A stretch of DNA of 64,000 nt from Eledone cirrhosa. Its lineage: Eukaryota. The position numbers and the translations under genes were made by a program. The notes beneath the pieces are model-generated. The model was not told the DNA's origin, did no database searches, and saw nothing but the letters and a program-made list of their open reading frames with translations. Positions 5,245 through 56,000 of this stretch are shown here, in pieces; position 1 is the first letter of the stretch, and every line of letters begins with the position of its first letter. Location of the stretch: positions 426,126,001-426,190,000 of the forward strand of contig OZ024740.1 in the NCBI GenBank assembly GCA_964016885.1. Direction: 5' to 3'.

Positions 5245-5527
5245 TAACAAAGGAAATGTGGTAAGGAACCAGGTGGCCCATAACGCACCAGAATACTCAA
5301 TACTTAGGGTAGTAGAGTGGGAAATGGGAAAAGGTATGACCCCGACGGCAGAGCTCAAGCTGTTTCGACGGCTATTTCTGGACTCAGAGTCCAGAATTGG
5401 CCATCGAAACGCCTTGAGCTCTGCCGTCGGGGTCATACTCGTTCCTATTTCCCACTCTACTACCCTAAGTATTGAGTACTCTGGTGCGTTATGGTCCACC
5501 TGGTTCCTTACCACATTTCCTTTGTTA
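5245..5527. mobile_element. Foldback made of two head-to-head 3' tips of the Naiad pseudo-LTR (pLTR)
   Basis: ~140-bp inverted arms centred on GGACTCAGAGTCC (~5386), matching 36950-37090 and 37790-37930; (TA)n on both sides. Confidence 0.9.
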
Positions 5528-5534
5528 TATATAT

Positions 5535-5706
5535 ATATAAAGAAAAAGAGATGAAATCGAAAATGCAACTGGAGTCTTATTTTTTTTTTAAATATATATA
5601 TTTATTTGGTTCCTTTACCGGTTTCGCAGTTCTTCTGCTTTGCAAAAGTTGAGTTGAGATGGAGGGTCTGTGGTTTTTCTCACATCATTTCTGTGGTTTT
5701 TCTCAC
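5535..5706 (-). mobile_element. Fragment of the pLTR family seen at 15768-16440, with mutated HHR core
   Basis: Near identity to 15830-15982; core reads TTGCAAA instead of TTGAAAA. Confidence 0.8.
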
Positions 5707-5978
5707 AAAGAGAGAGAGTGTGTGTGTATGAGAGAGAACATAAAGATAGAGAATGAGAGAGAAACTCAGTATTATGTGTGAGTGTTAGTATGAGTGTTTG
5801 TTTAGTGATATATATATATATATATATATATATATATATACACATGTGTGTGTGTGTGTGTGTGTGTGTGTGTGTGTGTGTGTGTGTGTGTGTATATATA
5901 TATGTGTGTGTGTGTGTATGTATATATATATATATATATATATATTTATATATATATATATAATATATATATAATATA

Positions 5979-7028
5979 ACTAGGAACAAGGCTAATAGAA
6001 TAAACTCATGGTATGATAGCAATAAATACCAGAGTGTAATGTTCATCGATACAACCCCTAGAGGTGAATTAGCTTACAAATTTAGAAGGGCCCTAAATAA
6101 ACATAAACTCAATATTAAGATAGTAGAAAGACCAGGTACCTCCGTAAAAACACTTATTAGCAAGACATACCCTTTTCAAAGACCCTCATGTATAGATAAG
6201 AAATGTATAACCTGTAAAATAAGCCACCATATTAACTGTAAAACTAGAAATGTAGTGTATAGCAAAAGATGTACTGAAGGACAATGTAGAGACAAAAATA
6301 TAGTGTACATAGGTGAGACAGCTCGTTGTGTAGGGGAACGGATAAATGAACACTGGCGAGACCTTCAAGATAGTAAAGAATCATCTGTACTCTACCAACA
6401 TGCTAAAATAGAACACAAGGGTAAATTAGAGAACAGAAATAAAAATAGAATCTACACACAGAAAAGACGCAATGCTTAGACAAATTACAGAGGCAATAAA
6501 CATAAAAGAATTACAACCAAAATTAAATAGAAAATATGAGTGGAACAGCAATATCACAACTTACAACTAAGGACAAAATGAAAACACACACACACATAGA
6601 ACAAACAACCAACCAGTAACGTGTAAATAAACAAATAAATAAATGAGCATAAACACACACAGACACCCGGATGTGGCGCATGCGCAGACTGAGCACGCAA
6701 CACACACACAGAAACAAAATGGCGTAGGACAGAACAAAGGAGAGGCACAGAAACAAAGAAAGGAATCCCCAGTCACTGAAGAGGTCACAGAGTGTGTGAC
6801 GAAAGAACTATGACAATATATAAACAACTATCTGGTTGTGGAACCAACCAACCATCCAGAAATTTATAAATTTATAAATTTATTATAAATTTATTATAAT
6901 AAATTGAAGTGAAAGCATCTGGTGCGTGTGTTTCTTATTGGCAACATGACCCTCCCAAAGTATAACAATATCGGTTTCAACACACGATTTCAGATAAAGA
7001 ATCTTGCTAAACAAATTCAGAAACGAAA
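5979..7028 (+). mobile_element. 5'-truncated PLE: GIY-YIG endonuclease end plus pLTR; same family as 24231-27059
   Basis: CIDKKCITC..NCKTRNVVY..C..C..VYIGETAR..ERINEH; frameshift near 6430; pLTR matches 24231-24660; flanked by (TA)n. Confidence 0.9.
6772..6814 (+). ncRNA. Minimal type I hammerhead ribozyme in PLE pLTR
   Basis: GTCA-CTGAAGA-G-GTCAC..GTGAC-GAA-AG AA CT-A-TGAC. Confidence 0.8.
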
Positions 7029-54008: not shown

Positions 54009-54608
54009 AATATATATATACATATCAATATATATATATACATATCAATATATATACATATCATATATATACATATATATATATATATATATATATATAT
54101 ATGGTGGCTGCCAACTCGTTTTCGAGTACGGCCACTACTTTATACCCATGTAGGAGAACCCCTACCGATGCGCTGAACGAGTGGACTTTTTAGTCCAGCC
54201 AGCGACTTGAAAACTCTAGTACAAAGACTACACTTGTGACCATTATTGACACATAGTGCAGGGCCCATGGTACCATGTGATGACAAGTGCAGAGAGAGAT
54301 CCAGATATAAAGCAATGCCTGTGCCGTGAAGCTTTTATAGTGAGCAAAGGCACTGCACAAAGCCAGTCCCACTCTCTTAACCAAGATGATATTTACCAAA
54401 AAGAAGAACAAGTCAACATCATTGGATACCATCAGGGTTGCAGGTGTTATATCAGAGTTTTCCTTCTCCTAGAATTCTGCCTTGACAAAGGCTAAGGGGT
54501 CATCTCTCCCGGATATACACACATATATATATAATATATATATATATATATATATATATATATATATATATATATATATATATATATTTATTAAAAATAA
54601 CAGATTAA

Positions 54609-54659
54609 AGTTTAAGCAAAGAATCGCTGCTTTCACCCTTAACGGGATCTTCTGAAACT
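54609..54659 (-). ncRNA. HHR with U4A core variant
   Basis: AGTTT-CAGAAGA-TCCC GTTAA GGGT-GAA-AGCA..TGCT-T-AAACT. Confidence 0.65.
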
Positions 54660-54820
54660 AACAAAGTCAATCTGTAAACGCAGAACTGGATATTTCAAAA
54701 AACGTTGCAACCGGAGGAAGACAGGAAGACGATACTTTGGTTCGTGGAAATCTTCAATTTTATTATTATTACTATATATATATATATATATATATATATA
54801 TATATATATATATATATATA

Positions 54821-56000
54821 CTATTAATAATGAGTTCAAATCTCAGGTAGTCCTTTTCAATGAAATAGCTCAAAGAAAGAAGTATTTCTGAGCCGTGTAA
54901 TACAAGTTAATATAAATTAATATATTTGATAAACACAAACACCAACATATCCATGTTTGTATTCTAAAGGACTAAGTTAGCTAGATTGAAAAATACTAAT
55001 TATAATAATACAGTTTGCCTGTCTCGATTTAAAATAATAAATCAATAAAAACAAAGTATATTGGCAAATGGCCGTGGTGCTTGGACAAATTTAAATTTCA
55101 AAATTAAACCTGTTCCGTAGACTGGTTTAAACCTTAAAATCCAAATAAGTTTCGAAAAATGAAAGTGAAAGAATACCGCATTTCTATCTCCACAGCAAGC
55201 ACCAGAAAAATTGGTATGTTTCACTTCAAAATATTTAAAAAGACTGTTTAACGCACATGGTTTTTAACACATGGTTATCCAGTGTCTAGCTACTGCATAC
55301 TCGTTCTGCTAGAAATAACAGCCGTTTATATGGGGTTAAATTTAGCTCTACGTAAGGAGCAGTGATACTATTAATAATGAGTTCAAATCTCAGGTAGTCC
55401 TTTACAATGAAATAGCTCAAAGAAAGAAGTATTTCTGAGACGTGTAATACAAGTTAATATAAATTAATATATTTGATAAACACAAATACCAACATATCCA
55501 TGTTTCTATTGTAAAGGACTACCTGAGATTTGAACTCATTATTAATAGTATCACTGCTCCTTATGTAGAGCTAAATTTAACCCCATATAAACGGCTGTTA
55601 TTTCTAGCAGCACGAGTATGCGGTAGCTAGACACTGGATAACCATGTGCGTTAAACAGTCTTTTAAAATATTTTGAAGTGAAACATACCAATTTTTCTGG
55701 TGCTTGCTGAGGAGATAGAAATGCGGTATTCTTTCACTTTCATTTTTCGAAACTTATTTGGATTTTAAGGTTTAAACCAGTCTACGGAACAGGTTTGATT
55801 TTGAAATCTAAATTTGTCCAAGCACCACGGCCATTTGCCAATATACTTTGTTTTTATTGATTTATTATTTTAAATCGAGACAGGCAAACTGTATTATTAT
55901 AATTAGTATTTTTCAATCTAGCTAACTTAGTCATTTACAATACAAACATGGATAAGTTGGTATTTGTGTTTATCAAATATATTAATTTATATTAACTTGT
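54821..56000. mobile_element. 547-bp non-coding unit, partial tandem plus inverted copy, HHR-bearing
   Basis: 54821 recurs at 55368; 55517-56000 is the inverse of ~54900-55400; HHR candidate at 55697-55780(+). Confidence 0.8.

What the first reader, a model, noticed from the sequence alone, without database searches (positions are those of the whole stretch)
5245..56000. Recurrent two-ended, (TA)n-primed inverted insertions across unrelated HHR families
Seen: at least five families form head-to-head inversions in (TA)n, and both outer ends fall at fixed internal TA sites of the element. Naiad ends are ..TTCC|TA (33473, 39719) and ..TT(C/T)GT|TA (5245, 5527, 37930, 39507). The second PLE group ends at ..ATAACAA|TA (27059, 42259) or a longer end (24231, 7028, 41486). 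The 547-bp unit ends at ..AATAG|TA and ..AACTTG|TA. Known: inverted 5' pLTRs are a PLE hallmark and twin priming explains L1 inversions. Inference: both cut ends of the self-complementary (TA)n target prime on UA sites of the RNA, routinely generating genomic hairpins.
Basis: partly seen in the sequence, partly recalled or inferred. Interest (0 to 1): 0.75.

Follow-up and report, generated by a model that had tools for sequence, protein, structure and literature searches.

The report
Head-to-head Penelope retrotransposon copies in TA-repeats
Jumping genes of the Penelope type often land in TA repeats as two copies joined head to head, a known layout, but here both outer ends sit at fixed sites that can pair with the repeat, which hints at how the layout is made.

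Summary
The inversions are real. Seven head-to-head insertions from five groups (A, B, B', C, D) lie in (TA)n, and their arms differ by 2-8% substitutions, so they are not assembly fold-backs. Each family uses two fixed outer ends. For family A, both ends recur in other runs, and the long end recurs in two other organisms. The architecture itself is published: inverted 5' pLTR, optional tail, (TA)n target. Corrections: family A is Hydra-clade by motifs, not Naiad. Inversions are 7 of about 20 TA-flanked copies, and one D end abuts (CT)n. Not found in my literature searches: (1) 8 of 9 end sites with known continuation share 3-4 nt with (TA)n (expected 1.1), whereas the one biochemical study found non-homologous initiation; (2) in 2 of 7 inversions each arm holds sequence the other lacks, which excludes simple snap-back of one target-primed cDNA; (3) family A has an abundant ~140-nt short form with a fixed inner end, often fused into ~290-bp hairpins. 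Best model: both nicked target strands prime at fixed internal RNA sites and the cDNAs are joined (0.55). Main rival: a self-primed hairpin trimmed by the endonuclease.

The parts
33474..33865 (-). Family A copy A1, 3' pLTR, ending at the short site next to (TA)n
34688..37009 (-). A1 ORF, RT then C-terminal GIY-YIG, Hydra-clade motifs (RWR, DKT, CxC linker), one in-frame stop near 36494
36953..37447 (-). A1 5' pLTR, continuous with the ORF; holds both end sites (36952, 37032) and the fixed inner boundary near 37090
37046..37140 (-). Hammerhead-like motif of family A, non-canonical core (C3 with A8), palindromic loop III; found by eye, missed by both scans
37449..37931 (+). A1 inverted pLTR ending at the long site; shares a 10-bp triplication near the centre with the 5' pLTR but not with the 3' pLTR
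5244..5528 (.). A2, ~290-bp hairpin of two short A arms, both long ends, 3-nt filler at 5385-5387
39510..39722 (.). A3, hairpin with a long-end left arm and a short-end right arm, 13-nt templated filler at 39650-39662, same inner boundary as A2
33160..33299 (+). A4, single short arm of a diverged subfamily, same inner boundary and long end, not inverted
24231..27062 (-). B1, 5'-truncated Neptune/Nematis-type PLE with long 3' end; inverted pLTR at 26791-27062 ends at the short site
5974..7032 (+). B2, 5'-truncated copy of family B, long end, not inverted; minimal hammerhead near 6776-6810
41487..42262 (.). B3 (sister family B'): left arm with tail, 50-nt filler at 41716-41766, right arm with ~310 nt extra upstream and short end; each arm has unique sequence
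54821..56002 (.). C, non-coding 547-bp unit: ~1.3 tandem units plus an inverted arm from 55508; 14-nt shared sequence at the junction (55508-55521)
55698..55827 (+). Type I hammerhead of unit C, 9-bp stem I, predicted cut after 55818
   Evidence: z -3.3
56450..56483 (-). 34-bp non-inverted copy of C ending at the same site as the inverted arm
15769..16438 (.). D1 hairpin: left arm has the tail, right arm reaches ~35 nt further inward and ends at (CT)n; U3-A8 minimal hammerheads at 15912-15941(-) and 16332-16361(+)
50239..50710 (+). D2, non-inverted family D copy with long end
5540..5690 (-). D3, non-inverted family D copy with short end, sharing a TA tract with A2
42319..42515 (.). E3, short TA-flanked family E copy with an internal inversion (E1 20237-20337, E2 33334-33450 and E4 54588-54772 are single-orientation)
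20433..23788 (-). ~702-bp tandem unit with 5 type I hammerheads, TA-flanked, not inverted; the one scored end without TA microhomology

Best explanation
These are EN+ Penelope-like elements (Hydra clade for A, Neptune/Nematis type for B) and hammerhead-bearing non-coding relatives (C, D) that target (TA)n. The endonuclease nicks both strands of the self-complementary repeat (inferred). Each 3' end pairs by 3-4 nt with one of two element-specified internal RNA sites, 45-85 nt apart, and primes cDNA; the sites and the pairing potential are shown, the priming is inferred. If one end primes, the result is an ordinary 5'-truncated copy. If both prime, the two cDNAs run inward and are joined through microhomology or short fillers, giving a head-to-head pair with a short or long end on either side. 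In family A most cDNAs stop about 60 or 140 nt from the priming site at one fixed point. That point is probably the 5' end of a transcript starting inside the pLTR (inferred), and it yields an abundant short form and ~290-bp hairpins.
For: The outer ends of inverted arms are the same sites as the 3' ends of non-inverted copies in A, C and D, and for A this holds beyond the window. TA microhomology is at 8 of 9 sites, expected 1.1. In B3 and D1 each arm holds sequence that the other lacks. Long and short ends occur on either side. Junctions are heterogeneous: A2 and A3 differ, and X8 reads show six opposite-strand joints inside the ORF (five loci) and three near 37087-37090, none at a CATG or AATT site of the reference. 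All 5 short A arms in the window begin within a few nt of 37090, and summed depth falls from 2,991,028 at 37053 to 48,352 at 37099 in X1 and from 530 to 74 in X5. In vitro, a PLE protein cuts and extends both strands from the same two internal sites that define the tail, and is modelled as a dimer.
Against: The same in vitro study reports initiation without homology to the target, though in another clade. 5 of 7 inversions (A1, A2, A3, B1, C) are topologically also compatible with snap-back; C has a 14-nt junction match and the A1 arms share a private triplication, both expected from copy-back. A hairpin trimmed by a TA-preferring endonuclease would also give fixed TA ends. The 702-bp retrozyme end has no microhomology. 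The right end of D1 is atypical and could have been deleted later. The depth step is only 1.9-fold in X6, contig depth is not copy number, and the X8 step is confounded by an AATT restriction site at 37080-37083. Genome-wide data exist for family A only.
Confidence: 0.55

Rival explanations
1. Self-priming or snap-back makes a hairpin cDNA, and the endonuclease then trims its ends at TA-like sites in the element DNA before joining them to (TA)n. The fixed ends are then cut sites, not priming sites.
For: This combines published suggestions: self-priming from junction palindromes (PMC3846280) and EN-mediated resolution of the tail (PMC8557442). C has a 14-nt match at the junction, A1 has a near-perfect palindromic centre with a triplication shared by both arms, and D1 has a 3-nt match. 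Trimming of both ends could also explain B3 and D1.
Against: In vitro RT start sites coincide with the tail ends. The A2 centre has no pre-existing self-complementary seed. Non-inverted copies end at the same sites.
Confidence: 0.27
2. A few palindromic master loci are copied whole by one primer, so the second outer end and the centre are inherited and not made anew. The short A form would be an ordinary non-autonomous family.
For: A2 and A3 share the centre position and two variants absent from A1. The arms of one insertion share private variants, for example D1 arms 3 differences against 15 to D2.
Against: The A2 and A3 fillers differ. Read joints near the centre fall at 37087, 37089 and 37090 and appear to come from another subfamily, and the ORF-internal joints are all different.
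Confidence: 0.13
3. The inversions are assembly or library chimeras, or chance neighbours in TA hot spots.
For: TA tracts here do carry chains of unrelated insertions. Most read joints rest on one start position each.
Against: Arms differ by 2-8%. All 7 pairs are same-family and abut without TA between them. Joints are seen in contigs of one sample and in raw reads of another, away from restriction sites, one of them on both mates.
Confidence: 0.05

Closest known systems
EN+ PLE architecture with inverted 5' pLTR and tail (Craig et al. 2021, PMC8557442; Arkhipova et al. 2013, PMC3846280; Schostak et al. 2008, PMC2377424; passages read, plus section 11 of the first)
   Same: Inverted 5'-truncated copy next to the 5' end, optional extension at either end, partial tandems, (TA)n targets for Hydra and Naiad.
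   Different: Tails here are about 45-85 nt against 30-40. In the passages read these papers call the mechanism undefined or invoke self-priming and EN resolution, and do not report TA pairing at the end sites.
Poseidon element PAc of Anolis in vitro (Frangieh et al. 2024, PMC11167929; main text read)
   Same: Both strands cut and extended, two fixed internal RT start sites equal to the genomic tail ends, AT-rich targets.
   Different: Start sites were reported as not homologous to the target; here 8 of 9 share 3-4 nt with it. The main text does not link two-strand extension to inverted pLTRs. Supplement not read.
Minimal PLE hammerheads (Cervera and de la Pena 2014, PMC4209133; parts 1-2 of 4 read)
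   Same: Reports pairs of motifs 100-700 bp apart on opposite strands, many solo copies, the U3-A8 core and an extra base before stem II, as in D and B.
   Different: In the parts read, no end mapping, no fixed inner boundary and no mechanism for the inverted pairs.
Non-LTR retrozymes (PMC7229834, term search only; bioRxiv 10.64898/2026.07.22.740005, parts 1-2 of 5 read)
   Same: C and the 702-bp unit are non-coding tandem units with a type I hammerhead.
   Different: C carries a PLE-style inverted arm with two fixed ends; 'inverted' has 0 occurrences in PMC7229834.
L1 twin priming (recalled, not read)
   Same: Both target ends prime, one at an internal RNA site by short pairing, giving a 5' inversion with microhomology at the join.
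   Different: L1 arms partition one RNA without overlap and the internal site varies; here the arms overlap and both sites are fixed.

Membership tests
Naiad PLE (family A) | GIY-YIG endonuclease N-terminal to RT | tested here: not met
   The YIG motif lies after YRDD (positions 476 and 218); among 33 long relatives it is after RT in 22, before in 0, and unscored in 11
Naiad PLE (family A) | DKA motif | tested here: not met
   DKT in this copy; DKT in 23 and DKA in 4 of 33 relatives
Hydra PLE (family A) | RWK motif, DKT, C-terminal EN | tested here: met
   RWR, DKTG and a C-terminal YIG; criteria
Hydra PLE (family A) | CxCX5C linker | tested here: inconclusive
   The third Cys is Phe in this copy; two other Hydra-type ORFs in the window have it intact
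Hydra PLE (family A) | Canonical hammerhead in the pLTR | tested here: inconclusive
   Stems I-III are visible by eye but the core has C3 with A8; not found by scans; fold z -0.48
Hydra PLE (family A) | Insertion in (TA)n | tested here: met
Hydra PLE (family A) | Phylogenetic placement with reference Hydra RTs | not tested
   No named references among the hits looked up; no tree built
Neptune or Nematis PLE (family B) | Cx2-5CxxC linker before a C-terminal GIY-YIG | tested here: met
   the two clades were not told apart
Non-LTR retrozyme (unit C) | Tandem non-coding unit with a type I hammerhead | tested here: met
   547-bp period, 9-bp stem I, core intact in one arm and mutated in the other; only ~1.3 units in tandem
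Non-LTR retrozyme (unit C) | Self-cleavage and circular RNA | not testable with these tools
   No RNA holder listed (which queried family A only)
L1-type twin priming | Arms partition one RNA without overlap | tested here: not met
   Arms overlap in all 7
L1-type twin priming | Target-site duplication around the whole unit | not testable with these tools
   Hidden in (TA)n; no empty alleles available

The most novel reading that the evidence does not exclude
(TA)n-targeting PLEs work as two-headed primers: both cut target strands base-pair, telomerase-like, with fixed UA-containing RNA sites, and this is what makes the inverted pLTR. Because the sites lie just downstream of the element's own start site, the usual product is a ~140-nt run-off cDNA, and pairs of them seed the genome with very many ~290-bp hairpins. 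The mechanism also mobilises retrozyme-like units.
Probability: 0.35. Interest if true: 0.7.

Novelty: new variant of a known kind. Interest (0 to 1): 0.45.

Why it matters
How PLEs form their tandem and inverted structures and why they favour microsatellites is named as an open question in PMC8557442. These copies give exact nucleotides to mutate in the existing in vitro assay and separate two-primer from self-priming models. They also suggest that a high-copy short hairpin family in this genome is a by-product of one PLE.

Tried and rejected
No whole genome is held, so the genome-wide tally was replaced by one read-laying run on family A only. Rfam gave no hammerhead hit, only hairpin-type matches below gathering score and one tRNA-like match. 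No RNA holder listed. An exact 23-nt pattern found 0 matches in metagenome contigs. Earlier findings: none. I first read family E as a non-overlapping twin-primed pair; rejected because E4 reads as one continuous strand with a degenerate hammerhead, and E1 and E2 are internal deletions of it (by eye). The fixed inner boundary of A is not the predicted hammerhead cut, which lies about 40 nt away. An extra C at the inner end in A2 and A3 could be a copied cap, but templated filler explains it equally; kept as a hint only. The boundary also resembles a 3' splice site and an initiator (both consensus motifs recalled); no spliced junction was seen. The X8 read-end peak at 37083 is a restriction site and was discarded. 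The three A1 pLTR copies are star-like apart from the triplication, so uninformative; the T-differs count of 27 is inflated by misalignment. The SINE pair at 14027-14412 is tail-to-tail with 11% divergence and was excluded. One relevant paper (PMC5850863) is not held, and older reviews in subscription journals could not be searched, so absence from print is limited.

Full report
Setting. The window is repeat-rich animal DNA with many (TA)n tracts. No assembly is held. The evidence is therefore the window, one laying of four public runs on family A, and papers.

Observation. The 13 coordinates checked from the finding lie within about 3 nt of element/(TA)n junctions. Seven insertions are head-to-head, with the RNA 3' direction pointing outward on both sides: A1, A2, A3, B1, B3, C and D1. 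Their arms differ by 2.2-8.0% substitutions, which a fold-back artefact would not give. By eye, at least 12 other TA-flanked copies are not head-to-head: A4, B2, the 34-bp C copy, D2, D3, E1, E2, E4, two Hydra-type ORF copies, a hammerhead-bearing piece starting at 37962, and the 702-bp array. E3 has an internal inversion. Inversion is common, about 7 of 20, but not the rule.

What the families are. A has an RT followed by a C-terminal GIY-YIG domain with RWR and DKT. These are the Hydra criteria of Craig et al., who also report (TA)n targeting for almost all Hydra families (PMC8557442, section 11 read). Of 33 relatives of at least 650 aa among the 150 hits, 23 have DKT, 22 have the YIG motif after the RT core and none before. 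[quoted passage not shown] C is a non-coding 547-bp unit with a well-formed type I hammerhead. D has a minimal U3-A8 hammerhead and B a minimal one with an extra base before stem II; both variants are described in PMC4209133. The motif in A has a non-canonical core and was found only by eye.

Fixed outer ends. A has 6 long and 2 short ends among 8 in the window. In the runs, TA-repeat loose ends pile up at the same two places: 297 and 82 contigs in X1, 4 and 2 in X5 (another organism), 3 at the long site in X6 (a third organism), and 8844 and 3402 raw reads in X8, another sample (only the best-supported rows are shown). B, C and D also have two ends each, 45-80 nt apart. This is the published tail signature, and Frangieh et al. 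showed that tail ends equal RT start sites.

TA pairing. Where the element sequence beyond the end is known, 8 of 9 sites share 3-4 nt with (TA)n; simulation on each family's own sequence expects 1.1 (P about 3e-7; 5 of 6 families, P about 1e-4). The miss is the 702-bp array. The B long end, the D long end and two Hydra ends could not be scored and were left out. TA alone is not enough: five TAT sites lie in the A region and two are used. The in vitro study of a Poseidon element found no homology at initiation, so this is either clade-specific or reflects an endonuclease cut preference.

One primer or two. A single target-primed cDNA that snaps back can only make an arm contained in the first arm. 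B3 and D1 break this: one arm has the tail and the other reaches further inward. D1 is weaker, because its right end runs into (CT)n. The other five fit either model. For snap-back speak the 14-nt match at the C junction and a triplication shared by the two A1 arms but not its 3' pLTR; both also fit two primers on one tandem RNA followed by annealing. For two primers speaks that inverted arms end at the same sites as non-inverted copies, and that the purified protein extends both strands from the same sites. A free hairpin trimmed by the endonuclease at both ends remains a coherent rival, in line with the self-priming proposal of PMC3846280.

Recurrence. X8 reads show six opposite-strand joints inside the ORF (two of them one locus seen on both mates) and three near 37087-37090, two of which also appear in X1 contigs (15 joints shown, 45 not). 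None of these positions lies at a CATG or AATT site of the reference. Most rest on one start position, as expected for RAD data but weak singly.

An unreported short form. All five short A arms in the window begin within a few nt of 37090. Summed depth drops between 37053 and 37099 by 62-fold in X1, 7-fold in X5 and 1.9-fold in X6, and is far lower in the ORF just beyond the long end (13,722 at 36402 in X1). Contig depth is not copy number, the library type of X1 is not on record, and the X8 drop is confounded by a restriction site. Three short loci against one long one in 64 kb agree in direction. The boundary is not the predicted ribozyme cut. D. virilis Penelope starts transcription inside its pLTR (PMC2377424, passages), so a run-off at the RNA 5' end is my leading inference; a strong RT stop or descent from one master are alternatives.

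Novelty. The architecture, the tail, (TA)n targeting and close opposite-strand hammerhead pairs are in print. Searches for Penelope with twin priming gave two listings that I did not read and none for the hyphenated form; searches listed nothing on TA pairing at the end sites. Subscription journals and supplements were not seen, and one relevant paper is not held. L1 twin priming is recalled, not read. Verdict: a known PLE layout with new, testable detail on its mechanism.

Noticed in passing
window:20433-23788: Tandem array of ~702-bp units with five type I hammerheads, flanked by TA; looks like a non-LTR retrozyme.
   Followed up: partly
window:33160-33474, 20201-20433, 37931-37962, 42262-42319, 54588-54821, 5528-5540: Chains of unrelated PLE-derived insertions share single TA tracts, so tracts are re-used hot spots.
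   Followed up: partly
window:14027-14412: Two SINE copies tail-to-tail, 11% diverged, in AT-rich flanks; opposite polarity to the PLE pairs.
   Followed up: partly
window:34100-34146: The 3' UTR of A1 holds a piece resembling the 3' tail of the local SINE; many reads of that SINE clip there.
   Followed up: no
window:37095-37110: A ~14-bp loop micro-inversion in the 5' pLTR of A1 relative to its other two copies.
   Followed up: no
window:18728-20200, 57849-61133, 51700-54044: Further PLE copies: two Hydra-type with intact CxCx5C linker and hammerhead-like 3' motifs, and one broken C-terminal-EN copy on the minus strand; no inverted pLTR seen.
   Followed up: partly
window:38054-38081: Canonical minimal hammerhead on the minus strand in a non-inverted piece ending in the TA tract next to A1.
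   Followed up: no
window:28238-28328 and 50729-50818: Another short two-copy family ending at TA tracts.
   Followed up: no
window:1-2551, 7592-11563, 45724-47811, 61500-63260: Long minisatellite arrays unrelated to the finding.
   Followed up: no
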